NCBI GenBank assembly: GCA_977018835.1
Contig: OZ361258.1
Location: 1,736,001-1,800,000, forward strand
Length of the DNA: 64,000 nucleotides
Origin: Minutocellus sp. GHC0000111
Lineage: Eukaryota
Direction of reading: 5' to 3'
The notes under the pieces were generated by a model, which was not told where the DNA came from, ran no database searches, and saw only the letters and a list, made by a program, of their open reading frames with translations. Shown here in pieces: positions 1-36,989 of the stretch. The position numbers were made by a program, and so were the translations under genes. Within the stretch, counting starts at the first letter, position 1, and each line of letters begins with the position of its first letter.

Positions 1-2551
1 TCAAAAAGTCGCAAAAGACCACATCAAACTTTGACGATTGCAAGGCCTGGAGACCCTGCATGCCATCGGAGGCGCAGGCAGCTTGGAAACCAAGGTTGGC
101 CAACGCCCTTCCGATGGACTTGCGAATGACCACAGAGTCGTCAACTGCCAAAGCTCGTTTGGTGTCGGAGCCGGAATCAGGACCCGACCCTTTGATCGGG
201 ACGAGGCTCTCTTCTCCTGCAGCCACCGCAGCGTCGTTGCCATCCTCCATCGCCTTGGAGACTGCCTCGTAAACCTCCTTGGCATCGCACTTGTCTGAAT
301 CTTGGACCGAGATCATCTTGCGCTTCTCGCTGCTTGACGAAGGCGAGTCCGATGCCTTGGGACTGGACGAGGCACTAGTCTCGGTGGTGCTTGGCGCCTC
401 CTCGGGCGAGCAGCTGATCGACAGGGGAACGGCGAACCAAAACATGGACCCAGTCGGCTGGTCCTTGGCGGCAGAGTCCCAGCTCTCCTCCTTCCTCGGT
501 CGGCAACCGCACCGGCCTCCGAGACTCGACACATTGATGGCGACGGAGCACAGGCCAAGACCGGGCTGGTCGTGGGTGGGCAGAGAGGCGCTGTTCAGGT
601 CCGTGGAGAAGGGTGAGCACAGCTTCTGCCTCTGCTCGCTGTCGACGCCGGTGCCGGTGTCCCTGCACTCGAACATGAGCATGGACTTGCTTTGGCCCAA
701 CTTCTTCACGTAGATGCGCATCCGAATGTAGGAATCGGATGATGACAACGATGATGATGAGGCGGCGGGAGTGTGCCTCGCGGCACTCATGAGAAGGTGC
801 AGGGCCGACCGGAACAGCTTGAGCTCGTCGGAGAGGAGTTCGTCGGGGACCGTCGGGTCGGGTCGGCCACGATCTCGATGGGAGGGGAGGTGCCGTCCGA
901 AGGGCAGGCTTGCGCCGCGGCCGTGCGGAGGGTGTCGACATAGTCCGACAAGACGACGGTGTGAAGTCTCGACGACGACGCACCTCCCGAGTTGAGTGTG
1001 GAGAGGGACGCCACGCTGGCGCTTCGCGACAGGCCGCCACGTCGAGCATCGCGACCGTCACCAGTGCCATCCTCCTCCTCCTCGTCGATGCTGGGCATGG
1101 GCAGCACCCCTCCCTTGGCTGCTGCCGATGACGACGAAGTGCCGCCGCCGCCACCGCCGGCGGAGGAGGACGACCGCCTGTTGTCGTTGGCAACGTCGGC
1201 CAAGTCGGTGCGGAAGTTGTCAATGGTTTCCGTGCAGATCTTGTCCATGATGGAGAGGGAGGACAGGGCCGATCGGATGTTGGCGTCGGCTTCGGTGCTG
1301 GCACTGGTGCTGGCATCGGACTCGACCATTTTGGACAGCATCTTGCGGGTCGACTCGAGGGGCGTGAGGAGATCGCGGGCCATGCACGCCATCTGTTGAG
1401 GTTGCGATTTGTGGGGTAGGTGAAGCAGGTAAGGAAGGGCATGTCGGAAACAACATGTGTGAGGCAACATGGGGCACATTAATGCATGCATGCATGTACA
1501 TATGTTGATAAGAGGTGCAATGAATGAAACGCACAACACACAACATGCAGTGCAACACACATGCGCATGCGATGGCATGTCACGACCACGACATCACTAT
1601 GACCGGACGTACCACCTTGGACCGGTCGGCCGCCAGGGCCATCCGCTCCTTCCGTCGGTTGACCATGGCCTCCATGACGAGGGCGGCCAGTTCCTTGAGA
1701 TTTTGCTTCTCCATCAGCGTCAGGCCGGCGGGTCGGGTCTTGGTGTCGATGATGCACAGCGTCCCGAGCTTGTACCCCTCGGGACAGATGAGGGGGGCAC
1801 CGGCGTAGAAGCGGATGTGGGGCGCGCCGGTGACGAGGCCGTTGTTGCGGAAGCGCGGATCCTCCAGGGTGTTGGGGACGATGAGGAGGTCCTCGGTGGA
1901 CTGGATGGCGTGGGCGCAGAAGGCCACCTTGCGGGGGGTTTCGCGGACGTCGCCCAGGCCGCGGTTGGACAGGAACCACTGCCGCCCAATGTCGATGAGC
2001 GATACGAGGACGATGGGCACGTCGAAGAAGCGCTGGGCCAGGCCCGTCAGGCGCTCGAACGCTGGTTCGCGGTTGGAATCGAGGATGAGGTAGGACTTGA
2101 GGACCATGAGCCGGTCGGTCTCGTCGGCCACCGACTGCCGGAGGCTGGTTTCCATGAACATGTTCTCGGTGATCCAATCGGCCTCCTTGGCGTTCGGGAG
2201 ATCTTTTCCGTCGCCGCCGTCCGAACTCGTGTCGTCGTCGTCGGACGAGGAGTCGGAAAGCTCGGAATCGTACAACGGGCAGGAGTGGGTGCTGCACTGC
2301 GAGGCCCTCATGGACAGCTTGCGGAGGGCGGCGCTGATCGACTTGCGATCCTCAAAGTCGTTGATCGTCCTGGCCCTTTCCGGTGGAGGTGGGGTGGTGG
2401 TGCTGGTGCCTGCTTCTGATGATGATGCGGCAGCGGCGGCGATGTCGGCGGCGGAGCGGTTCCCCGTCGTGCCCATGTCTTCCTCTCCGTCTTCCTTTTG
2501 GGGCGAAGGCATTGTGTTTAGAAATGGTGGGGGAAGATATTGATTCATCAA
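1..2551 (-). CDS. GAF-HisKA-HATPase-receiver hybrid histidine kinase-like protein (degenerate H/N boxes; one frameshift; 3' end runs off window)
   Basis: Exon 1 (2551-1613) has a GAF domain (RLMVLKSYLILDS...FCAHAI...RFYAGAPL...LGTLCIID). GT-AG intron 1612-1393. Exon 2 reads MACMARDLLTPL (H-box position), then after a 5-bp duplication at 852-866 reads ELKLFRSALHLLMSA, ECRDTGTG, GLGL, GSMFWFAVP and the receiver KRALAVDDSVVIRK...DGMQGL...FDVVFCDF. Confidence 0.85.
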
Positions 2552-10703: not shown

Positions 10704-10831
10704 GTTGTTGCTGCTTGAGTATCTCGGGTGTGTGAGTTACTGGGTGCGGTACCGGCACTTGACCTTGAAGACCGTACGATTGTTGTTGGGTGGCCAATGC
10801 ACGTGCTGGAAAATGGCGGCGCGCGGGAGAA

Positions 10832-10994
10832 CGTTGTGGGTACCGCACGGTGGGGATGAGCTGGCGACGGTGGTTAGCAGCAGGCACTAAAACTGCATTC
10901 CTGTAGTGCCCAGTTTTTCTGCTGACCACCACCTTCGCCTCCTCTCGTCTCAACTGACCAAGCCACAACCATCTGCGATTGCTGCCGTTGCAAT
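10832..10994 (+). repeat. Repeat A copy 1 (163 bp); further copies at 11390-11552 and 19303-19467
   Basis: Near-identical CGTTGTGGGTACCGCACGGTGGGGATGAGC...GCTGCCGTTGCAAT occurs three times. Confidence 0.95.
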
Positions 10995-11615
10995 CCAGGT
11001 CCAAGAATTTACATCCGGAGTCTCCACACGCATGATCCAACGAGGTTCCTTCTTCAACGTGCCCCACGCACACTCGACGAGCCATCGCGAAGACCCAAGG
11101 ACCCCAAATTGCCGCCAATCCTTCGCCGGCATCAACAGCATTGGCCGAAATGCCGGCTTCGGGACTCCAATGCCCCCCTTCGCCCTGTTCACCTAAGCAC
11201 GACACACATTATTGGCCGATCTGTGCTACGGAAAGGAGGAGGGGGAGAGGGACCTCACCCTCTAAGAAGTTTCATTTACCGCCAATGCCAGCTCCAGTTC
11301 ACGTAGTTAAACTGCATTTCATGTTCTACTAAGTTGTTGCATAGAGTTGGGAGAATCAGCGGAGGGAGGTGCTGTGTTCGATGTATCATCGTTGTGGGTA
11401 CCGCACGGTGGGGATGAGCTGGCGACGGTGGTTAGCAGCAGGCACTAAAACTGCATTCCTGTAGTGCCCAGTTTTTCTGCTGACCACCACCTTCGCCTCC
11501 TCTCGTCTCAACTGACCAAGCCACAACCATCTGCGATTGCTGCCGTTGCAATTGCTAAGTCAGCTTACAGCACCGGCTCCCAGAGCCTGTCTCTCTCTCT
11601 CTCAGTAGTTAGTTA
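10995..11615 (+). repeat. Left long direct repeat C-A-D (about 620 bp)
   Basis: Matches 18906-19532 from CCAGGTCCAAGAATTTAC to (CT)n CAGTAGTTAGTTA. Confidence 0.95.
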
Positions 11616-11659
11616 GTTTTAGCATATTAGGTTGGTGCTGCTCTACGAGTTCGTAATTA

Positions 11660-13219
11660 TTGGCCGACACACCACCACTGCTGTTAGTCCAGAGACCGCA
11701 GTCGACTCCGGAGTCAAACGGCCACGGCTCAGCTCCGTTGATAGTGCACGTAGATCCGATACCAGTCTCTACGACGGCAGAACAGTGCATGGCCGAACCA
11801 GATCGACCGGAACTGGATCACGTGTTGTTCGGAGTGGCAAGAGACCTCATCGTCCGAGGAGACTCTCCTGACCTTCCACGAGGCTGGGACAGACTCAGAC
11901 GTCAGATTCGGCCCGGGCGCAGAAGTTTCTTCACAGCCAGGGCGTCGTCCGAGAGACTGACCACAGACGCACTGGATTGGTGGAAAAGTTTTGCCGAGGG
12001 CCGAATCGACGTTACCGAGTGCCTCACCGATCTCGTCGAGCGCGCCACAGGCTACCTCCCATCGAGAGCCACGGGGTACCAGCCATCCCCAGCAGCAGCC
12101 GTTTCACACCTTACTCCAGTAGCGCACGGTCTGGTCGCCGAGTGCCTCGAGCAACAAGCCTTCTTGGTGTCACCGGACTGGCCCACGTACCTCGTCAACA
12201 TCTGGCTGATAGCCACGCGCCTTACCGAGCCTGAGATCCGCCGGGCACACGAGACGGCAACTGAGTTGGACCTGAGCAGTGCACTGTACCGACTACCACG
12301 GGCAGACGGAGGCGTCGTGGTTCAACAGTGTCGGGGGCGAAGGTGTCCGGAGGCATCGGTAGCAGCAGCGCGGCAACACCATTGCATCTGGCCCCAGCTC
12401 TGCCGGCTCACGCAGTGCATCCTCCACTACCAGGCCGACCGAAAAGAAAGACGGCGCATCGCGGCCAGAGAGGGCAGACCTCTAGAGCCGACACCGTACG
12501 CTTGCATAGGTTCACGGGGGAGCGAGCTTCCACCAACGCTGCCGCTCACTTATTTCGAGAGGGAGGTAAGGCCACTCTTCTACCCACGTGACGCACACGA
12601 CCGAACCGAGCGGGCTGGCGTCAGTGTGGCATTGGAGCGCGAGGAGATCTCATCGGCCCTTTCGCCCTGCCTGATCACCCAGTTCCCGCTGGATTCGCCG
12701 CACCCGTTCCAGAGACGGCAGTACCTACGACCGGACCAACTCACTGAAGCTATTATCAACTGGGACAGTGGATTCGAGAGCCTCACCAGCGCTCGACTCC
12801 GACACACTCGGCCTGACAGCAATCCTCTTGGACACCGAGTGGAGGTCAACCCGTACGAATGCTGGGGAAGGCTGGCAGACCTAACGGCGTCCCCCTCACA
12901 CCGCTGGGTAGGCACCTACCATCGAGTCTATCCGAGGTGGCTAGACGACACGGCCGATCCAAATCGCTGGGAGGGCACCGACTACCGCGTCTGGCCAAGA
13001 GCATCAATTCACCGGCGCCCCGACGATTTCGAGGCACCTATCCGCCTGCGAGATATCACCGCCGATATTTTGGTATCAGAGCCACCGCGTCAGGCATTCA
13101 ACATCCTTCTATCCACCTTTGGAGAGCCCGACATCGCCGACCGCATCCTCACCCTCACGGCCGATCTGAACCACATCCAGCGCCGAGAGGACCGACGCCG
13201 AAGGCGACAGGCAAGGTGA
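11660..13219 (+). CDS. Retrotransposon ORF1, unknown function
   Basis: 519-codon open frame (first ATG 11789) inside the element, directly upstream of the gag-like ORF. No recognised domain. Confidence 0.65.
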   Translation: MADTPPLLLVQRPQSTPESNGHGSAPLIVHVDPIPVSTTAEQCMAEPDRPELDHVLFGVARDLIVRGDSPDLPRGWDRLRRQIRPGRRSFFTARASSERLTTDALDWWKSFAEGRIDVTECLTDLVERATGYLPSRATGYQPSPAAAVSHLTPVAHGLVAECLEQQAFLVSPDWPTYLVNIWLIATRLTEPEIRRAHETATELDLSSALYRLPRADGGVVVQQCRGRRCPEASVAAARQHHCIWPQLCRLTQCILHYQADRKERRRIAAREGRPLEPTPYACIGSRGSELPPTLPLTYFEREVRPLFYPRDAHDRTERAGVSVALEREEISSALSPCLITQFPLDSPHPFQRRQYLRPDQLTEAIINWDSGFESLTSARLRHTRPDSNPLGHRVEVNPYECWGRLADLTASPSHRWVGTYHRVYPRWLDDTADPNRWEGTDYRVWPRASIHRRPDDFEAPIRLRDITADILVSEPPRQAFNILLSTFGEPDIADRILTLTADLNHIQRREDRRRRRQAR

Positions 13220-13235
13220 TCGAGCATTGATCACA

Positions 13236-15543
13236 ATGGCTTCATCTTTCAACACCTGGAAGTCAGTCCTGCTGGCACAAGAGATGCCGGCCGGGGCCGA
13301 CGCCGCCGTAGCTCGAGATTTCCAGAGATTCCTCGCCGACAACGTCTGTGAAACCGACCCCACGGCCGCTGTGGTCCAGAGCCATGCCCGAGCGATCCAG
13401 CAGCAAATCCGCGACGCCGAGGGTTTGTCCATGCTGGCCCACCATCCAGAAGGGAAAGTCGTGGTGATTCACCATGCCGTGGCTCAGGGAGGCACCACCA
13501 TGCAGCCCGACCTCAGGTTGGGTGGGCTCCTCGGGATCGACGATGTAGCCCCGGCAATGTCGTTGGCCCAACCTAGCCTCTTGCGGCACAAGGAGGTCCT
13601 AGCCCCATCGGTGGAAGCCATGCTGGGGGCACCGTCAGAAGCCGCCCTAACCGGTCTCACCCAGGAAGGCTCCAACACCCGCCACCGGAGTGCCTCCACG
13701 AAGTTTAAGTCCCTTGTGCCACTGCCACCTTCGATTCTGCAGAATGTTCTGGAAGAGCACGAGGCATCGCCTTGGGCCATCCTGTCCGCCATCAAACGTC
13801 GGCTGGATGAGGACGCCGGCAGCGACGACGCATCAGACAGCGGTGACGACGAGGGTCATGGCGCAGCAGGTCTTCGCTCCAATGAGGCTGTTCAACACGT
13901 CGTCAAGTGGCTGTGGTTCGTCGCCACGTCCGAGCAAGGTGACATCCCGGCCGTCAGCTTGTGCCCAACGACGGACCCGGCTCTCAAGACACACGCCCGT
14001 GAGATGCACGCTCGGCACATCACTGGCGCCAGTGGCGACGGACCACCAGCCGGTGGCGCCCCGACCGACTCTGCAGTTGCTGCCGCGGCCAACGCCATGA
14101 CTAGGGCCGCGTCCGAAGCATCCTCCCTCACCGGCGCAGTCATGGCCTACACTGACAAGGTCGACAAGAAGCACTCGATGAATGGCGCCATCCTCAAGGC
14201 CTGTGCCGCTTTCTGCCGGGTCTCGACCGAGCATGACGATGATGTAGCAGCGATCGACTCGAATCTTCCCGAAGGATTGAAAGCACTGCTGGAAGAGTCA
14301 AACCTCACGCAAGCAGCCGTCGGCCTCGAGCTGCATGTAAAGGGCAAGACCGGAGTCAGGACATCTCTCCAGGGCCTCACCACTTACGTCCGCCTCTTTG
14401 GCTTCGGGAAGAGCGACAAGAAAATCTACGATGGCTTCTCTGTCTTCGCCTTTAGCCCGGTAAACTCCAGCAGCAGCAATGCGCCCCTGTGCCTCTCCGC
14501 CTCTCAAAAGAAAGGACACACCTCGACTCAGGTGAAGGCTCTTCTGAAGCAGAACTACCGGTCCCCAACCGAGTGCGACGGTGCCAAACGTCACATCTCG
14601 GCCTTCGGCGCTGGCATTTCCTTCCTTGCCGGAGAGGATTCCGAGCCCGCTCGCTACGTCGCCAGGGTCCTCAGTCACATGAAGACACACGAGGACCAGT
14701 GCCGCGACATCGCCGAGAGCCATGGCGAGAAGTTCTGGCTGGCGATGTTCCACAACATCGACGCCTCCATCCATGCATTCTGGAAAGCTTGTCTCCGTTC
14801 CCCCCGACGACGCCGGCAACGACCTCTCTTGCTTCTCAATGGCCGACGAGTCCAAAAAGACAACGAAGACTCAGAATCCTTTCGTCTACCCCAGCCACAT
14901 CAAGCTCGTCCAATCGGCCGACGCTCCCACCCCTTCCTCGGATTCCGACTCCGACAAATCAGAGCCAAGAACCAGTCCGAAAAAGAAGCAAAAGACGGGC
15001 GGCGCCAGCGGCAGAGCCCACCAGTGCGAACACTTCGTCACGTTCAACATCAACCCCGGCAACTTTGCAAAACGGCATGGCAAGAAATCCGAGCCCTATG
15101 AGGACAGACCTGAAATTAATGGCTGTAAATTCTGCCCTCCATTCATCCTGATAGGTGTCTGCGGCGCCGGATCCTCGTGTAAGCTCAAGAAGTCGCATGT
15201 CAAGTTTCTCGGCCAGCCGGCCGAGCTCGTCCCTCCAAGCGCCGTCGAGTGCAGCCAGATGCGTCGGCGTCGATCCGCCCCGGTGGCTCCAGCCGCCCAA
15301 GGTTGTCCGGCACCCCAAAATCCGGCGTGTGCGGTCGCAACGACATCAGCAACCAATCCAGGCTCTCCGGTGCCCCTAACACCGGAGCAGAAGGCCGAGG
15401 CGTTAGCAGTGACCTTCGGTCGGGTCCTGGTCCCCCTAACACCAGCGGTGATGCCTGCGCCGACAACAGCATCTCAGGCTCTGGCTCCAGCACCACTAAC
15501 GCTGGCGGTGCGGAAGCCACCGACAACCTCTTCGACCGGCTAG
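13236..15543 (+). pseudogene. gag-like ORF with C-terminal CCCH-type zinc finger; frameshifted at about 14800
   Basis: Lies before RT. FCPPFILIGVCGAGSSCKLKKSH (C-x8-C-x5-C-x5-H) is in the shifted frame. The 3' end is approximate. Confidence 0.6.
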
Positions 15544-15756
15544 GCCAGCGAGAGAAGGATCTCCTAGGCAAGCAGCCCCAACCCGAAGCACAGTCTCCCC
15601 CTGGTTCCCCTACGCACAGCAAGGAAGCAGAACCGACACGCCAAAATGGTAAGTGAGACCAACAGGTGAAGAAACACCTACAACAAACGGGGCAGCCCAG
15701 CGCCCACAATGGGCCCACCACGGTCGGACAGACCCGCATGCTCGTGAACGTGCAGC

Positions 15757-18347
15757 ATGTGCATGTCTCACCTTTTTCTCGCCTCATGCAATTCCACGTG
15801 GGAACTAGAGCCCATCTTCGATGTTTCCACCTTGGTGCAGTGCGTCCGACGAGCAGTCGAGTCCCCGTCGGCCACACCGAAGCCCACGGAGTTCAGATTT
15901 GAGCTCTTGACGGAGGCCGCCGCTCACAATTGGTCGGTCCTCAAGAAACACGATCGTTCTCTGAGCAGGGCACTCGAGGCGCAGGGCGGGTCGCCACTCC
16001 AACCGGGATCGGAGTTCAGAGACCTGAGTCTTCTGGAGAGCCGATTCTTGGCCGGCACCCGCTGTGGCCCCGCTTCCGCTCCATTCTCGACAGTGGATCC
16101 GACTGGGCCCTCGATCCGGTGAGCGACGAAAGCAGACTGGACAGCGTGACAAAGAACATCGGCCGAGGCAACCACAAATCGGCCAGGGATAGGCCGGAGG
16201 TGCTCAAGGACCAAGTTCTCGACGACGTGACCCGCGGTTTCGCCCTCCCTCTGCCAGCAAAGGTCGCGCCCCTCATTCCTGGAGCGGAGGTGGCTCCGAT
16301 GGGTTTGGTAGCACAGAACACGATCAGCGAGGCTGGCGAGATCATGCCCAAGGACCGCCTGACTCACGACCAATCCTTCGAGATCGGTGCCGCACGGTCC
16401 GTCAACAACAGAGCACGCATGGAGGACCACCAGCCAGTGGTGTTCGGCCATGCCCTCCGGCGAGTGATCCACCACATCGTAGACGCCCGTCACAAGCATC
16501 CCCGCACTCCCATCCTCCTGCAGAAGGTCGATTTCAAGGCTGCGTGTCGCCGGGCCCACTTGGCTCCCAGCACGGCCGTCAAAACGATCACCACCCTGGA
16601 TGGCATTGCCCTCATGTCCCTCCGGCTGACTTTCGGCGGCCGCCCTTGCCCGAGCGAATGGTGCAATGTGTCCGAATCGGCGGCCGACCTGGCCAGGGCC
16701 CTCCTGCAATGCTCGGACTGGGACCCGTCAGAGCTCCACAGCCCCCAGCAGAAGCACTTGGGTCGCCCCAAGGTGGAGGGCGACTATGTGCCGTTCGCGC
16801 CGGCCCTGGACATGATCGCAACCCTTCCCGACAACAAGGATGGCATCGTCGAGCCGCACATCGATGACCTCATCGCCGCAGCCCCTGACCTGGGCGACAA
16901 CAAGGATCGGACATCCGCTGCCACCCTCCTCGCCATCCACGCGCTTGGCCGACCGGTGTCCGACAGCGAGCCACTGCCCAGAGATGACCTTGCCTCCATC
17001 AAGAAGCTGCTCGCCGACGGGACGCCTTCCGAAGCACTGTGTCTCTTGGGGTGGGATGCTGACACCCGGCGGCTCCTACTGAGGCTCCCTTGGAGCAAGC
17101 ACCTGGCCTGGCGCGATGACATGCTTCGGCTCCTCAGAGCCCGCGGCGCCACCAGATCAGAGCTGGACACCTTGGTCGGAAGGCTAAACCACGTCGGATG
17201 CATCATTCCAGCCGCACGACACTTCCTCAGCCGCCTTCGGGATCGGCTCTGGAAGGCCCGCCGCCACGGCCGCCAACGGTTCGACTCTGAGGATGCAGAA
17301 GACCTCAACCTATGGCTCCGCTTCCTCCGAAGGGCCGCCGATGGCATGAGCATGAACCTCCTCACGTGCCGTTGCCCCACCCACGAGCACACAAGTGACG
17401 CCTGCGAGCACGGCATCGGCGGATGGTCCTCATCCGGCAGAGCGTGGAGATTTGCCCTCCCCGAGGAGCTGTGGGGCCGGTTCACCCTCAATTACCTGGA
17501 ATTCCTCGCCGCCGTCATCGGCCCATGGATCGACCACATCGAGGGCAACCTGCCAACCCTCTCCTGCGTGCTGTCGGGGACCGACAGCACCACGGCCGAG
17601 GGATGGCTCAGGAAGTCGAACTTCGTGTCTCACGGCGAGAAGGATGCCGACGTAGCGGTCAAGCTGGCCACGGCGCGGAAACTAGCCGACACACTCATCG
17701 AGACCAACACCATGCTGCACTCACAGTGGTTCCAGGGGAAGCGCAATCCGGAGGCCGATTCTCTTTCTCGTGACACCGATCTCTCTGATGCTGACCTCAC
17801 GAAATTGCTTCTGTCATCTCCCGAATGTCAGCTTCCCTCAAATTTCAGGATTGCACCACTACCCAACGAGATTGCTTCCTGGATTGTCTCGCAGGCGCGG
17901 ACGCTGCCCGTCAGGAAGCAGTCACAACGGCCACTGCCGAGAAGCACGCTCTCGCGTGGAGCCGCTGGACTGAGTTCCTGCAGCTCATCGGGACCGGGGA
18001 CGACGTCTTCCTCGACAAGGTGTCACCCCGAGACCGAACAGTCATTCTCGGCGCCTTTGCCCACGCCGTCCGACAGGCCAGCTTTTCGGGGCCAAAGTTT
18101 TCGCGACTGGCTGCGTCGACAGTCCGAGATGCCGTCTCACATGCATGCTCGTCCTTCCGGCACAACCAGCGCAGGGACCCAGGGAAAGACGACATCGGCC
18201 AGCCTTCATTCCTTCTGCAGCGGCAGTTCCGAGGATGCAGCCAGTCCGACCCGGCCGAGCGGCCGGAGAAGGCGATCACCTGCCGGCTCCTCCGAGAGAT
18301 CGCCTCCGTCAGGGAAACGGAAGAGGACCGTGCAGTCGGGCAACTAG
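15757..18347 (+). pseudogene. Reverse transcriptase / RNase H of YR retrotransposon
   Basis: KDRLTHDQSF, KVDFKAACRR, LRLTFGGRPCPSEW, HIDD (for YIDD), LGW, and RNase H TSDAC..GIGG, NYLEF, TDSTTA, NPEADSLSR. Frameshift near 16040. Confidence 0.92.
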
Positions 18348-19109
18348 CCGTCGGCGCCTTCTTCTTCGCGATGAGGTCTTGCGAACACTCCAGAGTCAGC
18401 GGTGAGCGCAGGACCAAGCTGCTCCGCCTCCGCAACATCCAGTTCTACCGCGGCCGACGGCGCATGTGTCACAACGACCGGTCCCTCCTCTCAGCAGACT
18501 CTGTCTCCGTCGCCTTTGAGTTCCAGAAGAACGACGAGCGTGACGTCACGATTGCGCAACACTGCACCCACGACGCCACCCTCTGCCCAGTTCGAGCTTG
18601 GGCTGCCCTGGTGAAACGAGTCCTAGGGCACCCTAGCACCAACAGCGATACGCCGGTAAATGCCTTCGTGGTCAACGGCGCATTAAAATACATTCCTGCC
18701 ACCCGAATAGTTGACAAGATCCGAGCGTCGGCCACAGTGATTGGAGAGAGGACGTCCTGGGCTGCCATCCCTCTGAATTCGGATCACACTCCATTCATTC
18801 GCAGCGGGGAGCAGCAATGGCAATGTATCTAAATGATGTTCCCACGTACACAATCATGCTGGTAGGGCGGTGGTCCAGTGACGCCTTCCTCAAGCACATC
18901 CGTCGCCAGGTCCAAGAATTTACATCCGGAGTCTCCACACGCATGATCCAACGAGGTTCCTTCTTCAACGTGCCCCACGCACACTCGACGAGCCATCGCG
19001 AAGACCCAAGGACCCCAAATTGCCGCCAATCCTTCGCCGGCATCAACAGTGTTGGCCGAAATGCCGGCTTCGGGACTCCAATGCGCCCCCCTTCGCCCTG
19101 TTCACCTAA
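17825..19109 (+). pseudogene. Tyrosine recombinase, overlapping the RT/RH ORF; frameshifted, catalytic Tyr replaced by His
   Basis: FFFAMRSCE, FEFQKND, LCPVRAW, disrupted HSIRSG (about 18790-18810), IMLVGRWSSDAFLKHIR. Confidence 0.9.
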
Positions 19110-19532
19110 GCACGACACACATTATTGGCCGATCTGTGCTACGGAAAGGAGGAGGGGGAGAGGGACCTCACCCTCTAAGAAGTTTCATTTACCGCCAATG
19201 CCAGCTCCAGTTCACGTAGTTAAACTGCATTTCATGTTCTACTAAGTTGCATAGAGTTGGGAGAATCAGCGGAGGGAGGTGCTGTGTTCGATGCATCATC
19301 ATCGTTGTGGGGGCACCGCACGGTGGGGATGAGCTGGCGACGGTGGTTAGCAGCAGGCACTAAAACTGCATTCCTGTAGTGCCCAGTTTTTCTGCTGACC
19401 ACCACCTTCGCCTCCTCTCGTCTCAACTGACCAAGCCACAACCATCTGCGATTGCTGCCGTTGCAATTGCTAAAAGTCAGCTCACAGCACCGGCTCCCAG
19501 AGCCTGTCTCTCTCTCTCTCAGTAGTTAGTTA
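18906..19532 (+). repeat. Right long direct repeat C-A-D
   Basis: Copy of 10995-11615 with a few substitutions and slippage indels. Confidence 0.95.
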
Positions 19533-20053
19533 ATTTAAGGCGGTAAATGAAACTTCTTAGACGGGTTTGAGGGAATTTCTGCCGCCGCTGGCCCGACATG
19601 TCCGATAGGGTGGGTTGTTTGAGCACCGTGAAACAAAAGAATTCAGTGTGACTAGCTAGGAATTCCTACATGTAGGAGTGCCTCCTACTTGAGTTATAAT
19701 ACTGTAAGAAATTTATATAAGATTCTACCGGTATCACCGCCAGAGAGGGTGTATGCAGCAAACCGGAAAAAATGCAACTCATATGTATTGAAGATCTGAA
19801 TTCATCCTCCTTCCTTCTTCGTTCGATGTGCCAATGATCAGAATATACGAGTGTCTTGGTCCCACTCTAGTTATCTAAGGTGGCTCATGTTCGACACACC
19901 CGTGCTCTCATCGCCACGCGCATAAAGTAAATCAGTTCACATACATAAATCCAATGCAACAAGTTGCGTGCCCGGATCAGCTTGCATCTAAATCATCAAG
20001 ATCTGTCGATACTCCTCTATAGTGACTTCTACTCCACTTCTTCCGCTTTCAAA

Positions 20054-20812: not shown

Positions 20813-22073
20813 CTTGCTGGGGCTTTGGTGGGAAGTAGGAATTCCAACTGCTTTGAGAGGCGAGTGCTTGTGGTGTGAATTTGAATTTGAGGTTGGCGCG
20901 CCCGCCAACCATAGCTCAGGTATCTCTGTTGTAGCACCAATGGTATCTCAGTATCTCTCGTATCTCAGTTTGGTGGTCGGCTTGTTTGTGCTTGTTTTTT
21001 GCTGCTTAGTAGCATGATTGAAATTTTATCACGCCGTTTTGGGCCCAGCAATCTGAGCACATATTCGGACTCCTCATTGTATATTGAATATGCCTATGCA
21101 TTCAAATTGCTGGGCCGACGATGGCGTGCCTCCTTTGCTCTTTTGACTTGGCAATATTTCATCAGAGAAAATCCCATATCTGCCCCCTTTTTTCATTCCC
21201 CTTTCCAATTCAGTCCGTCCATCCATCCATCAGCCATCTCGTGAAGGTCACAAACGAAACGGAGAAGCGAGAAGGAGAAGACGGTACCGTCGGAAGGTAT
21301 CAGTTACTGGCTTTGTTGGGGCGATACAATTTCTTCCTTGCTGTATCACTGTGTCTCCTCGTTCATCACATCATCCGTTTCCTGGAGCTCCTGCGCTGTC
21401 CCCGCGTTTGCAACACGCGCAGGACTGACTTATCCGCCGGTCATCACGTCGGTCACACGTAGCTCTGCGGTCACATTGCCAGCTACTCAGCTGCATCGTT
21501 GTCACATCCCATTTTGTGATACTGCCAATAAAGAGGGCACCATTTATTCAGCACAAAAGTATATCTTTATTGGCATATCGGGCGTATCTCGGACACATCT
21601 TGTCTTTTGCTGCTCAGGTTTTCCGTTTGTAGGGTAAGTTTATGCGCACGCGCTGTGGCCGACATTTGCCTTGTACCTCTCATTAATCATGTGCTCCTTT
21701 GTTTGTACCTTGTTCTCACCATGCATACTGCAACATTCCTTCCATATATCGTTACCCTTTCAACAGGTAGAAAGCAACAGGCTTGTTGCTGCAGCCAACA
21801 ATCCCGGAATAGGTCGCCCCTCTCGTCGTCTTTGAGGTGGTCCGTCGAAGACCGCCAGTACGGGCATAGTTGCGTCTGCGTCTACCGGTGGTTGGTCCTG
21901 GGCCTAAAATTTGATTGGATTGACACCTCCTCAGTTTTTCCTACCTGTCTTGTGGCTTTCGCGGCTATTGTAGCACAGCAGTGCCAGTAATACCTCCCGA
22001 CTCACTTTGGAGCACAATGTAGACTATCGGGCAATTGTATCGGGCAGTCTCCCGCCAACCATACCATTGCATC

Positions 22074-31877: not shown

Positions 31878-34800
31878 GTGTTGTGACCAATCTGCCCCGT
31901 GCGCAATCTACCCGGAAAACGGGACCACCGGCAGATTGCGCGTAAATCTGCCCTGATTTTCAGAATCAGGTTACAATCTGCCCCGACGATCAGGGTAGAT
32001 TGCGCGGGCGTGCATCTCGACGGTATCGCCTCCATTGACGCTCGCATCTCGCGGCCTTCACCTGTTTGTGCTCACATTGCAATAGGCATTGTTGCTGTGG
32101 CTCTGTTGTCATCAAATCATGCGAAGAGAGATGGTCGACGACACAACGAATCCAACCGAAAGTATCGACATTGCGATGGTTTCTCGACAATGAATTCCAG
32201 GCTGCCACCGAGCTTGCCGAAGATTACGATGCTCGACTGATTCTGGCAGATGAAACATATGAAAAAATAACGAGCGTATCAAATCAGTGCTGATGCAGAC
32301 GGTCCAAGACTTGTTTAGACCGCCGCAAGGATGGAACGCAATTCTTTCTGATTTGCAGAAAGCTGGAGAGAGAATATTGACCCACAACTGCCTACAAATT
32401 CCAAAACAAAATCGAGAGGCATTGTTTCTATTCGATTTGGACATGCTGCAATCAGCGCCAGATATACTGCGACTGCATGAAGCGAGAATATCCAGATTTG
32501 CCAAGGGCCGACTTTGACATGCTGCGACTGCAGCAAGAAGCGAGAAGCAACATCTGATAACAACATAATTTTATGAAATATACTAGCGGCATTCTTTGCT
32601 GATTTGTAATATATAATCTTGATACTACATGTACTTTTTAAAACATTGAATGAATTGTACATATGTCTGTGTATGAGCACATTTGAGCATTCGTTTCCTG
32701 ATTCATTTCCTACATGTACTACGTACCAAACATGGCTTGGATGCTCGGCGCTTCAGAAAGGTTCTCCCCCCTTCTTTTGGGAGTTTGATCGAAAAACCGC
32801 CCACCCCGCCCCACCGGCAACATTGGAATTCGGTTTGGTGGGACACATGCATGCATGGGGATCGTGTCAGTTTGCGGATCCCCATTCTGGTTCCGATGAT
32901 CTTTGAGCTTCTTCTTTTTCCGTAGCTTGCTTGTGCATCCTCACCGTAATTCTTCGCTGCAGCAGACGGGTCTGGCCGCAGACCCACTGCTGCTGCCAAT
33001 TCGGCAATCGTCGGCGCACCGGGCTTGTGCAGTCTCTCTTCCTTGTTTTGGCCCTGAGAATGTTCTCTTCCTCGTCGCTATCATGGTCACTGCACTCTCC
33101 TCGGTCCCACCGCTCTTGCCTCTCCATGTCCTCCATGCGAATTCCGAATTCCATCTTGACGTAACTCGCCTTTTCATCCTCCCTCAGCGTGGCCATAGCC
33201 CTCTCCACACCCGGGCCGGATCGGGTGCTGGAGTACTAGCTGCTGCTGCAGCCGCCTTCGCCGCTGCCTGTTACAGATCGGCGACATGATTTGTATATTT
33301 TATCGAGGCGAGGGCAGAAACCAGGGTACCTTTCGGTTTCAGAGGATTTGTAGAGGGTATACCAATAACCCCTAAAAAAGGTCATTCTTGCACCCATTTC
33401 TCATTTCCCACCACGTGTTTTGTTAGTCGACATTCTCTTCGGGAGGAACGCAAACACTCCTCAACTCGTGGATATCTACTGGACCTGCTCATTCAGTAGG
33501 TTGCCACCGACCAGTAATATCCACTGAATTCGCAGGTCCAGTAGATTCTGGCAGGAACACATGTATTTTTTGGTCCCCCGCACACCCTCACCACCCCACC
33601 GCAACCCGCAAATTTTGTGACGATGACGACGACCAACCAGACCACGCCCAAAAATACAAACGCAGCAGAACTTCGTTCTCAGGGAGCAAGAGAGGCAACA
33701 CCAAGGCATCCAGGAAGGCGGCAAAGGCGGCAGCTGAGCCGAAAACACCATCGCCGAGCGCAAACACGTCGAAGAAGCGGCCGCCACGGTCGGTCAAATT
33801 CGCCCGCCAAACCGTCACCGTCGTCGGCGAAGAAGAGGACGGCCCCTCCTCCTATCCCCATGGCCTTTCTCCTTGCAGCAGATGTCATTCGAAGGGCTGG
33901 TAAGGATCTGTGGTGGAGAGTAACCCCCGATTCCTGCGGCAAAGATGACATTTGTGTTGGTTCTCGGCAGAAATGGGGGAAGACGTCCTCCCTTCTTTCA
34001 TCGAGGCCGACTTGTTGCGTTCCAAGTCCGTCGGTGGAGGAAAGTATGAGCTACAGTACAACGAGGAAAAATGGAAGGACATGCAGCAACATCTCAAGGA
34101 GCATTGTAGTTTGAAGTTGCACTTGTCGACGTGTCGGCCGAGAGGGAAGACAAGACGCAGGGCGCTTTGTGTTTGTGCTCACAGGTTGCGTAAAAAGAAG
34201 GAGGACAACCACCCGAAATTCTCTGGACCGGAGGGACAGAAGGTGCACGAGAAAAGAAATCCCGATGAAGTTCTGTTCTCTGGGCGCTCGACTGTCTTAG
34301 CTACTAAGCTAGGTGAGAGGTTGTCAGCTCACAGAAAGGAGGCACAGTCAGCGCATTGCGAAGCAAGAGCAAAATCACTAGTCGACGAGGCCAAGAAACT
34401 GGGTTGGATGCCAGCAAGTCTCCTCAGCATGCTGAAGGGAACTGGTGATACTTCCGCCACTGAAGCAGCTGCAGCCTCCCCCAATGATGAAGGTTTAGGA
34501 GGAGCCGATACTTCCGTTGTCTGTGCCACCTCCAGTGACATTGATGAACAGGTAAAGGTCGCTCTCGGCCTCGACTTTGTTGTTCGGATGGCCAACGATG
34601 ACATGCTCCGTCCTCCTCGTCCCAATGCAACCGTCACCGAACCAATGCCAATCAGAAAAGAAAAGCAGGCGAATGAAAGAATGCGGTTCAGCGCCGTGGC
34701 TCTCGCGGATTGGTGGGGACACGGCGACCCAACTCGCACGCATGAAGACCGGCAACAAATTGCAACTAACTGCCGCGTGTCGGCAAGTTGCGCACGATCA

Positions 34801-36989
34801 CGGTTGTGCCAAGTCAACCGGTGGTTCTCAGCTTTACAAGTGGAGAGACCAGCTCTACAAAAGCCTTGCTGATGGCATCAGCAATCCCATCGGCAGAAAG
34901 GAGGTTCGTGGAAGGAAGGAAGGCATGCACGGACATGATCGAGGAGAAGGAGCCAGGACATCTCCGCGAGCTGTGTCGGCATGCTGCTCGGATGAAGGGT
35001 GCGATGGCAACCTTTAAGGAGCTAGCTGACTGTATGAGCGCAAAATCAGCTACTCCAGATGAAGACAGGCTGACAATTAGTCTCCATCGTCTTCAGCTTT
35101 TTCGCTGGTGGAAAAAGCAAGGCGGTGAGGAGAAGTCGTCGATCGAGAAGCCGAGGCTCACCCCCGAACGTTGTAGGAAGCGACTTGATTGGATCGAAAA
35201 GTGGGAGGACATTGCGACCGATCCCAACATTCCTGTAGCGCATCTTGATGAAAAGTGGTTTTACACTGCTACTCGGCGACGAAAGCAAGATGTTGCCACT
35301 TTCTGAGGAAGAGCTAAGCAGTCCGAACCTCGCGTCTGTCCATGCTTCCGAGGCAAGCCCGAAAATTCGATCCAGAAGACACCCTGTCAAAGTTATGTGT
35401 CTTGGAGTTGTTGGCCGACCAATGAAGGATGAAACCAAAGACGTTGATTTCAATGGGCGCATCATGATCAAGAGAGTCGCCAGGGAGCAGAAGGTGGAAA
35501 AGCTTACGCGTAATCAGAATTTCTCTCCAGATGCTAAGGTCAACGATGCGCTAAAAAATGACAAAGATTGGCGCGACATTTACGACGAGAATGCTGACAT
35601 GACCGCCGGCCATCTTTGCGACCACATTGCCGAAATCTACGGCCTTTCTGAGTTTGTTACAGAGCGATTGGAACTTCAATACGAGGACTATAAATCCGAC
35701 GGTCAGGCAAAAAGTCGCAAGCATGCCGCTGTTGGCTACAATCAAAAGATCTCGAGTCTCAAGCGACACACTCCTGATAGCAATGTGGAGAGAAGGTGAA
35801 GGTTGAGATCGACGACCTTGAGCTCGGGGTGCGGCATCAACGGGGCGATAAGGTTACCAAGGACTGTAGCTGCGACTCCAAATGGATGTTGGAGACTATG
35901 AATGAGGTCGGGAAGGCGATTCGAGACGCACATCATTGGGTGAAGTGGGATCCACAAAATATTCAGGAGTCTGATGTTATGTGTCTTATGATGGACAATG
36001 CCGGCGGTCATGGGTCCAATGAAGCAGTTGAGAAGTACACCGAGGACCTCAAAAACAAATATAAGATTGAGACAATCCAGCAGGTTCCTCGGTCGCCCGA
36101 GACAAATGTTCTTGATCTCGGCATCTGGATGTCTTTGCAGTCGGCCGTCGAAAAGGAGCATCGCGGTCAGAAGAATGATGCGAATGCTCTTGACAAGACT
36201 GTGATGAAAGTATGGGCCAATGTCGCATCAAAAGAGGCCTTTCTCAATGTATTTGGAAAACTTCCAGTGATATATAACAACATCAAGAGAAGTCGTGGCG
36301 GTAACAATCTTGTGGAGACCAGACGGGGAAAGGCTGGTCTCGCAAAAATTGCCGAGGAAGAAGCTGAAGAGGATGGTGAACCACTCTGGCCAATTGATGC
36401 TCCCGGCGAAGATGATGACATTGAGGACGACATAGATGAAAATGATGAAGACGATGGAGTCATTGATTTGCTACAACTTATCATAGCATGTCCATTTCTA
36501 TTCATTACATTTTGATTTGGTGCTTCCAAAAATGTGCATTTTTTCCCGGGGTGAGGAATGCAAATGTCGAAAAAAATCATCACATAATGTACATTTATTG
36601 GTTCTGGTGCACAATATCTCTCGACTATATGTAGAAGTTGGTGACCATAACTTGGTTCTTGCCCCGACTTCCATCTTGGCCGTCATTTTTTCCTCGGAGT
36701 TAGTTAGAAAAAGTGAGCTTGGATTTTTGGTCTGGTGTGGTCGTGTTTCTAATGCGTCATCATCACGTCACTTTCAAATCCTCTGAACTCGAAATGTAGA
36801 TGGGGTTTCCGGGTAGATTGGTTACGAGCACAATCTGCACGGAAATGCTCCCGGCAGATGGGGGGCAAATCTGCGCAGATTTGGAACCGGGGGGAAAATC
36901 AGGGCAGATTTGGAACCGGGGGGAAAATCAGGGCAGATGGGGCGAAAAATCAGGGCAGATTTTTTTTCCGGGTAGATTGGTCACAACAC
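31878..36989 (+). mobile_element. Tc1/mariner (IS630-Tc1-mariner) DNA transposon, DD39D type, about 5.1 kb
   Basis: Terminal inverted repeats GTGTTGTGACCAATCT(G/A)CCC, subterminal AATCTGCCCTGATTTT / AATCTACCCGGAAA repeats at both ends, and an internal transposase. TSD not recognisable. Confidence 0.85.
33617..36515 (+). pseudogene. DD39D transposase, several frameshifts
   Basis: LDEKWFY, KVMCLGVVGRP, MDNAGGHG...SPETNVLDLG with 39 residues between the 2nd and 3rd Asp. The 5' start is approximate. Confidence 0.88.

What the first reader, a model, noticed from the sequence alone, without database searches (positions are those of the whole stretch)
10995..19532. Internal control: substitutions between the element's own repeats fall at TA-type sites
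Seen: left versus right copy read GATGTATC vs GATGCATC, GGGTACC vs GGGCACC, and GCTTACAG vs GCTCACAG (TA vs CA). They also read ACAGCATTGG (about 11135) vs ACAGTGTTGG (about 19046), i.e. CA in one copy and TG in the other. The other differences I noticed in the aligned part are slippage indels. Inference: these are post-insertion TA->CA/TG changes. The CA/TG site alone could also come from an ancestral CG.
Basis: seen in the sequence. Interest (0 to 1): 0.7.

Follow-up and report, generated by a model that had tools for sequence, protein, structure and literature searches.

The report
TA-erasing mutator disables diatom transposons
Copies of a jumping gene in this diatom-like alga have each had their TA letter pairs rewritten to CA or TG and carry many tiny duplications, likely the work of a host DNA-editing defence of a kind reported in print only for integrated viruses of an unrelated alga.

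Summary
Confirmed. The two 620-bp copies differ by 5 substitutions, all at four TA-type sites, plus 5 small duplications. Family reads, a third copy and two outgroup elements put TA as the ancestral state at all four, including the CA/TG site; the CG alternative is rejected. The copies belong to a rearranged Ngaro-like (RT/RNaseH + tyrosine recombinase) retrotransposon in a diatom. Across 50 family proteins, eight tyrosine codons read Tyr 22, His 119, Cys 93, Arg 0, and the CA-or-TG choice is unlinked between sites, so each copy was hit on its own, on both strands. The motif is 5'-TAY: RTAY is saturated (4 of 281 kept), roughly 1,000 times the C>T rate; CG is not depleted. A second signature goes with it: 2-5-bp tandem duplications. 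A mariner-like element and part of an intron-containing kinase gene in the window are hit too. Closest precedent: TpA hypermutation of viral inserts in Bigelowiella (2026 preprint). This scan noted TA erasure before in two other diatom genomes. The enzyme is not identified; a DNA adenine deaminase is the best guess.

The parts
10832..10994 (+). Truncated A repeat, the element's 5' end (third copy; keeps GGGTACC)
   Evidence: 100% identical to 11390-11552; other insertions begin at the same letters (loose ends); empty allele joins 10824 to 19578
10995..11622 (+). Left copy: recombinase tail + B repeat (from about 11215) + full A repeat (11390-11622); TA kept at 11384, 11399, 11566; CA at 11139
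11657..13219 (+). ORF1, 520 codons, no Pfam match; keeps many TA sites (RTAY 11 observed, 15.5 expected)
   Evidence: weak recombinase-like Atlas lead only
13236..15543 (+). gag-position ORF2, broken by a duplication at about 14800; RTAY 0 observed, 25.7 expected in 13231-15900
   Evidence: gag identity inferred from position
15760..18347 (+). Reverse transcriptase/RNase H ORF; +2 duplication at 16036; YIDD motif reads HIDD (16857)
   Evidence: fold matches retroviral and Ty3 RTs, E about 1e-10; start approximate
17795..19245 (+). Tyrosine recombinase ORF overlapping RT; duplications at 18744, 18797, 18806, 19083; conserved KYIRR tyrosine reads His (18895)
   Evidence: relatives match PF00589 and weakly Cre
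18906..19539 (+). Right copy: recombinase tail + B1 (about 19128-19300) + A2 (19303-19539); TG 19050, CA 19294, 19314, 19483
19540..19578 (-). Spacer plus a piece of B2, inverted relative to typical copies; right end of the insertion
   Evidence: joints and loose ends; L002 architecture
1..700 (-). Hypermutated tract of a host GAF-histidine kinase-receiver gene: 7 of 7 conserved Tyr are Cys; 5-bp duplication frameshift near 860
33327..36798 (+). Tc1/mariner-like DDE element with 24-bp inverted ends, frameshifted; 5 of 11 conserved Tyr columns are Cys or His

Best explanation
The repeat differences are TA-to-CA/TG changes from a mutator that has hit every listed genomic copy of this retrotransposon on both strands, likely a host DNA adenine deaminase that would convert A in 5'-TAY to inosine within silenced DNA. 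Shown: TA is ancestral; changes are transitions only; either strand is hit with equal odds; the 3' pyrimidine matters; copies are hit independently; catalytic motifs are lost; a DNA transposon and a host gene tract are hit too; 2-5-bp duplications accumulate in the same DNA. Inferred: an intact TA-rich master inserts copies; the copies are marked (repeat- or RNA-guided chromatin, not tested); A is deaminated site by site over many divisions and fixed as G at replication; excision of the lesions would make staggered breaks that end-joining fills in as short duplications.
For: Tyr codons: TA 22, CA 119, TG 93, CG 0 at 8 sites, no transversion states. RTAY kept 4 of 281, CA 137 vs TG 140; at one-sided sites the A with a 3' pyrimidine is the one lost, 49 vs 14, P=1e-5. 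The palindrome GATATC splits 18:21. No linkage between sites (r2 0.057 vs 0.053 +/- 0.004 shuffled) and no strand coordination. Outside TA, A>G runs at 38 of 12,147 opportunities and is confined mostly to HAY (GAC, NAA zero), transversions 21 of 55,807. 34 of 41 listed window-vs-family substitutions are TA-type. In the kinase gene all 7 changes are A>G on the coding strand, which under either single-strand exposure or transcription-coupled repair points to A as the damaged base (my estimate P about 0.03). TadA-derived editors prefer YA (passages, 10.1101/2024.11.19.623682). The Bigelowiella preprint proposes the same chemistry.
Against: No enzyme was found or searched for: no genome is held. 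A in TAY and T in RTA are the same pair, so sequence alone cannot name the damaged base. Off-target AAY (13 of 641) is not below CAY (17 of 2,040), unlike the YA preference of TadA (AAT rests on 2 sites). Duplications are not significantly closer to TA sites (5 of 11 within 6 nt vs 27%, P=0.14), so the link between the two signatures is only co-occurrence. ORF1 and 18651-18905 keep RTAY sites, unexplained. Most family data are amino-acid proxies, blind to silent changes.
Confidence: 0.55

Rival explanations
1. A modification-coupled mutator in the manner of fungal RIP: an adenine methyltransferase-like protein marks A in TAY within repeats and the mark is deaminated or miscopied to G.
For: Same pattern as the best explanation: distributive, both strands, fixed motif. 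RIP's use of a methyltransferase-like protein is recalled, not tested.
Against: No 6mA data; eukaryotic 6mA is usually at ApT (recalled), not TpA; off-target HAY hits look like a loose single-strand preference.
Confidence: 0.15
2. Thymine is the target: a TET/JBP-type oxidase modifies T in 5'-RTA (5hmU/5fU), which pairs with G at replication.
For: RTA on one strand equals TAY on the other, so every count fits equally. 5hmU in algal transposons is recalled from dinoflagellates.
Against: Coding-strand excess in the kinase gene is A>G (Cys) 7 of 7, where a T lesion would give His.
Confidence: 0.12
3. An error-prone polymerase (pol eta-like, WA motif) resynthesises patches in repeats and makes both the transitions and the indels.
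For: One cause for both signatures; AAY off-target hits exist.
Against: No transversion states at saturated sites; AAA, AAG, CAA, GAA never hit; frame switches are +2 (17), +4 (9), +5, +7 and no +1, unlike slippage.
Confidence: 0.06
4. The changes were made on RNA or cDNA before insertion (ADAR-like or APOBEC-like editing), or are old variants shuffled among copies by gene conversion.
For: Unlinked states could come from heavy recombination; two of three sites mutated in both repeats have the same state.
Against: RNA or single-strand cDNA editing gives one direction only, but CA:TG is 137:140 with no strand coordination; a DNA transposon and an intron-containing gene are hit; shuffling cannot remove TA from nearly all copies while Tyr-intact sisters exist.
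Confidence: 0.05
5. Ordinary CpG decay (CG to CA/TG), or assembly error.
For: CA/TG pairs are the classic CpG footprint; C>T is mildly higher at CG.
Against: Arg never appears at His/Cys columns and outgroups have Tyr or Phe; outgroup DNA has TA; CG o/e about 0.9-1.0; short-read contigs show the same variants and match host stretches of 250-780 bp with no gaps.
Confidence: 0.01

Closest known systems
TpA hypermutation of integrated viral DNA in Bigelowiella natans (bioRxiv 10.64898/2026.01.13.699255; parts 1-3 of 5 read; term search)
   Same: TpA to CpA/TpG only, both strands, about 1,000-fold over background, local, enzyme unknown, adenosine deaminase proposed, transposons suspected from TpA-poor reverse transcriptase and DDE genes.
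   Different: Here a diatom (stramenopile), not a rhizarian; shown copy by copy in a retrotransposon family, plus a DNA transposon and a host gene; a TAY context; 2-5-bp duplications. The preprint's main text has no mention of diatoms or wider context, and its indel rate is given for DNA outside the hypermutable regions. Its supplements were not seen and may hold context data.
Repeat-induced point mutation (RIP) of ascomycetes (search listing abstracts; mechanism recalled)
   Same: Dinucleotide-specific transitions that inactivate repeated DNA and can leak into neighbouring genes.
   Different: Opposite chemistry (RIP is C to T and creates TA; this destroys TA); dependence on homology or on the sexual cycle not tested.
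Ngaro/PAT-type tyrosine recombinase retrotransposons (passages of PMC3783388, PMC6681497, PMC8547959)
   Same: RT/RNase H and overlapping YR; A1-ORFs-B1-A2-B2 split direct repeats in the family.
   Different: This copy is rearranged (truncated A, extra YR-tail-B-A block, inverted right end); the family escapes Pfam RT models (0 of 50); an extra 520-codon ORF1.
Top2-type de novo duplications by end-joining (abstract of 10.1101/2020.05.03.075358)
   Same: Short (1-4 bp there, 2-5 bp here) duplications of unique sequence.
   Different: No evidence here for Top2; the source of the staggered breaks is unknown.

Membership tests
Bigelowiella-type TpA hypermutation | A:T to G:C transitions almost exclusively | tested here: met
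   No transversion states at 8 saturated Tyr sites; 5 of 5 repeat substitutions
Bigelowiella-type TpA hypermutation | Restricted to TpA, both strands | tested here: met
   CA 137, TG 140; 34 of 38 common protein polymorphisms are CA/TG pairs; low-level HAY off-target exists
Bigelowiella-type TpA hypermutation | About 1,000-fold local rate excess | tested here: met
   About 2 hits per A at RTAY vs 0.0022 per C>T site, ratio about 950; sites were ascertained as polymorphic, so rough; RTAY 0 vs 49 expected over 13231-18650
Bigelowiella-type TpA hypermutation | Ongoing and variable between clonal lines | not testable with these tools
   Needs mutation-accumulation lines
Bigelowiella-type TpA hypermutation | Targets foreign, silent DNA | tested here: inconclusive
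   Two transposons hit, 19 or so host ORFs keep RTAY, but one host gene tract is hit; silencing not measured
RIP | C to T transitions | tested here: not met
   Direction is T to C / A to G
RIP | Triggered by sequence duplication, in the sexual cycle | not testable with these tools
   No genome held; copy number of the kinase gene unknown
CpG decay | Ancestral CG, CG depletion | tested here: not met
   CG state 0 of 234 at Tyr sites; CG o/e about 0.9-1.0
ADAR/APOBEC editing of retroelement RNA or cDNA | One-strand, coordinated changes | tested here: not met
Ngaro-like YR retrotransposon | RT/RNase H plus tyrosine recombinase | tested here: met
   RT fold; PF00589 in 2 relatives at E below 0.001, under the curated cut-off
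Ngaro-like YR retrotransposon | A1-B1-A2-B2 split direct repeats | tested here: met
   B1-A2-spacer-B2 in L002 and in low-depth joints of this family; this copy's own ends are rearranged
Ngaro-like YR retrotransposon | No Dam-like methyltransferase domain (separates it from DIRS) | tested here: inconclusive
   No Pfam hit, but Pfam also misses the RT
Ngaro-like YR retrotransposon | RT/RH phylogeny with Ngaro rather than PAT | not tested
   No named reference sequences were in hand

The most novel reading that the evidence does not exclude
Diatoms and rhizarians share an old, RIP-like genome defence run by a natural DNA adenine deaminase with a TAY preference; in this diatom it is coupled to a break-and-fill process that adds 2-5-bp duplications, erases catalytic tyrosines from every inserted copy of retro- and DNA transposons, and spills into host genes.
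Probability: 0.4. Interest if true: 0.9.

Novelty: new variant of a known kind. Interest (0 to 1): 0.72.

Why it matters
It gives copy-by-copy evidence that the TpA mutator seen in one rhizarian preprint also acts on transposons, in a second major eukaryote lineage, which that preprint only suspected. The TAY motif, equal strand use and coding-strand bias are fingerprints by which candidate enzymes can be screened, and a natural DNA adenine deaminase would be of interest for base editing. The mutator removes the TAY tyrosine codons that RT and recombinase active sites depend on, without needing stop codons. It also distorts transposon dating, phylogeny and annotation in diatoms and can pseudogenise host genes.

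Tried and rejected
A metagenome scan with the window's mutated RT confirmed none of 94 matches. Pfam found nothing in the element's ORFs or in 50 RT relatives; sequence searches of PDB found no RT and only E about 0.5 Cre hits for YR. ORF1's recombinase-like Atlas hit is below the recognition threshold, a lead only. Duplications near TA sites: not significant. Strand-coordinated bursts within copies: none. Wider spread among relatives: of 110 distant RT relatives 89 have no His/Cys at 9 Tyr columns and only P0015 has 4; the YR relatives flagged are own-family fragments; none of 40 related loci lacks RTAY (o/e 0.40-1.26), though short-read contigs may favour intact copies. RNA-run contigs cover the element but cannot show transcription. 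The read tables were cut (40 of 86 and 40 of 116 substitution rows shown). A sixth RTAY candidate in the repeats (18982) was left out of the count because it is His in 14 of 17 tails with no Cys, likely inherited. Literature searches that found no report for diatoms: and a term search of 10.1101/2025.10.24.684338; the library lacks most subscription papers.

Full report
Observation. The blocks 10995-11622 and 18906-19539 align at 97.0%. Unpolarised, three TA/CA sites out of three is modest (P=0.01); polarised it is P=3e-4, and 2e-6 with the double site.

Polarisation. No genome is held, so I used four other sources. Contigs of public runs laid on the element give T at 19483 in 4 of 4 runs, GATGT at the second site, and TG third states at the second and third sites; the best of these runs may be the window's own sample and are not independent of it. 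A third, partial copy at 10832-10994 keeps GGGTACC. Outgroup elements fetched from metagenomes have TA at the CA/TG site (L002, 70% identical) and at the GGGTACC site (L001, 78%). Family recombinase tails read Ile at the CA/TG site in 14 of 17, which excludes CG. Two further RTAY sites are mutated in both copies (11370/19280 TG; 11571/19488 CA). So the right copy has lost 5 of 5 ancestral RTAY sites and 1 of 20 other TA sites, the left 3 of 5 and 0 of 20 (counts entered by hand).

The element. 10832 to about 19578 is one insertion: a contig of the empty allele joins 10824 to 19578. It encodes ORF1, a gag-position ORF, an RT/RNase H (model pLDDT 92; best folds MMLV, foamy virus and Ty3 RT) and an overlapping tyrosine recombinase. 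The family has B1-A2-spacer-B2 ends, the Ngaro/PAT arrangement described in passages of PMC3783388 and PMC6681497. This copy is rearranged: truncated A, then YR tail-B-A, the ORFs, YR tail-B-A again, and an inverted piece of spacer and B2. The pair is therefore not a canonical terminal repeat, and identity at insertion is inferred from the family's low background divergence. The host is a diatom by its genes: a 68%-identical relative of a host kinase clusters with Arcocellulus cornucervis.

Family-wide process. Fifty RT proteins at 90% identity or more (a few are duplicates) lie mostly on megabase contigs, likely the window's own assembly since one tail equals the window's copy. Tyr makes up 0.18% of their aligned residues against 1.87% in 108 distant relatives. 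At eight Tyr codons the states are TA 22, CA 119, TG 93, CG 0; 34 of 38 common polymorphic columns are CA/TG pairs. The YIDD motif reads His 35, Cys 5, Tyr 1. The CA-or-TG choice is unlinked between 30 sites (mean r2 0.057 vs 0.053 +/- 0.004 shuffled) and not strand-coordinated: copies do not inherit states, so each was hit separately and site by site. A Tyr-intact sister exists (P0168, Tyr at all 11 columns); 11 of its 29 differences from the window are TA to CA/TG, 18 are ordinary divergence.

Motif and rate. RTAY is absent over 13073-18648 (0 vs 49 expected) although it is the commonest TA context in host DNA. TA is kept at 4 of 281 RTAY observations and 46 of 109 one-sided ones, where the A with a 3' pyrimidine is lost 49 to 14. 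Off-target A>G falls mostly on AAY and CAY, never on NAA or GAC. Against C>T (35 of 15,663) the excess is near 1,000-fold, a rough figure. CG is not depleted, whereas both earlier notes of this scan on other diatom genomes report CG loss as well (not tested here). The baseline in Phaeodactylum is GC-to-AT biased with indels about 30 times rarer than substitutions (passages of PMC6604790).

Second signature. All 12 indel rows shown for the window against the family are extra letters in the window (13 rows not shown), of 1-4 bp and tandem. In other copies there are 42 in-frame insertions, nearly all doubling a residue, against 6 clean deletions, after dropping 7 rows mapped twice, 4 rows at frameshift tails and the rows that reflect the window's own insertions; frame switches are +2 (17), +4 (9), +5, +7, +20, no +1, and five negative. 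The lack of +1 argues against slippage or read error and fits fill-in of staggered breaks, as in the Top2 case (abstract). They are not significantly closer to TA sites.

Other targets. In the kinase gene at 1-2500, 7 of 7 conserved Tyr at or below 619 are Cys and 6 of 6 above are kept, with a 5-bp duplication frameshift. A mariner-like element at 33327-36798 has lost 5 of 11 Tyr columns, all in RTAY. Other host ORFs keep RTAY at about 5-17 per kb.

Mechanism. Transitions only, both strands, a one-strand motif and action on DNA transposons and an intron-containing gene place the event on chromosomal DNA. RNA or cDNA editing, CpG decay and polymerase eta do not fit. Deamination of A is the simplest chemistry and the coding-strand bias in the kinase gene favours A over T as the damaged base; a methylation-coupled or thymine-oxidation route is not excluded. 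Targeting and the enzyme are untested.

Comparison and verdict. It works like the TpA hypermutation of viral inserts in Bigelowiella (parts 1-3 of 5 read; supplements not seen) and meets its three testable features; it works like RIP but is not RIP. New relative to that paper: a diatom host, per-copy action on transposons, the TAY context, host-gene spill-over and the duplications. Six searches and one term search found no report for diatoms. The scan itself has noted TA erasure in two other diatom genomes.

Noticed in passing
window 1-1600 (minus strand): Host GAF-histidine kinase-receiver gene with a sharp boundary: 7 of 7 conserved Tyr at or below 619 are Cys, 6 of 6 at or above 712 are kept; a 5-bp duplication near 860 shifts the frame; the intron near 1400-1600 is rich in CA/TG.
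   Followed up: yes
window 33327-36798: Tc1/mariner-like element with 24-bp inverted ends, several frameshifts and partial TA loss: 5 of 8 RTAY Tyr columns lost, 0 of 3 YTAY.
   Followed up: yes
window 11623-13230 and 18651-18905: Stretches of the element that keep RTAY sites while 13073-18648 has none; protection near the ends or promoter is unexplained.
   Followed up: partly
window 11657-13219: 520-codon ORF1 with no Pfam match and a weak recombinase-like Atlas lead; its start is also present after the A repeat in sister L001.
   Followed up: partly
window 10810-10832: Two other insertions seen as loose ends also start after GC-rich flanks ending in AA, hinting at a target preference.
   Followed up: no
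P0015 (unnamed 6.5-kb contig): A 50%-identical RT relative with Cys/His at 4 of 9 Tyr columns, possibly another family or host with the same mutator.
   Followed up: partly
family RT proteins, window 16330-17580: Five of the six clean in-frame deletions are 9 bases long.
   Followed up: no
window 36806-36984: Four 22-29-bp GC-rich tandem copies between two 20-bp direct repeats, just outside the mariner-like element.
   Followed up: no
window 20911-21951: Two runs hold a contig that skips about 1 kb here, a structural polymorphism in the host flank.
   Followed up: no
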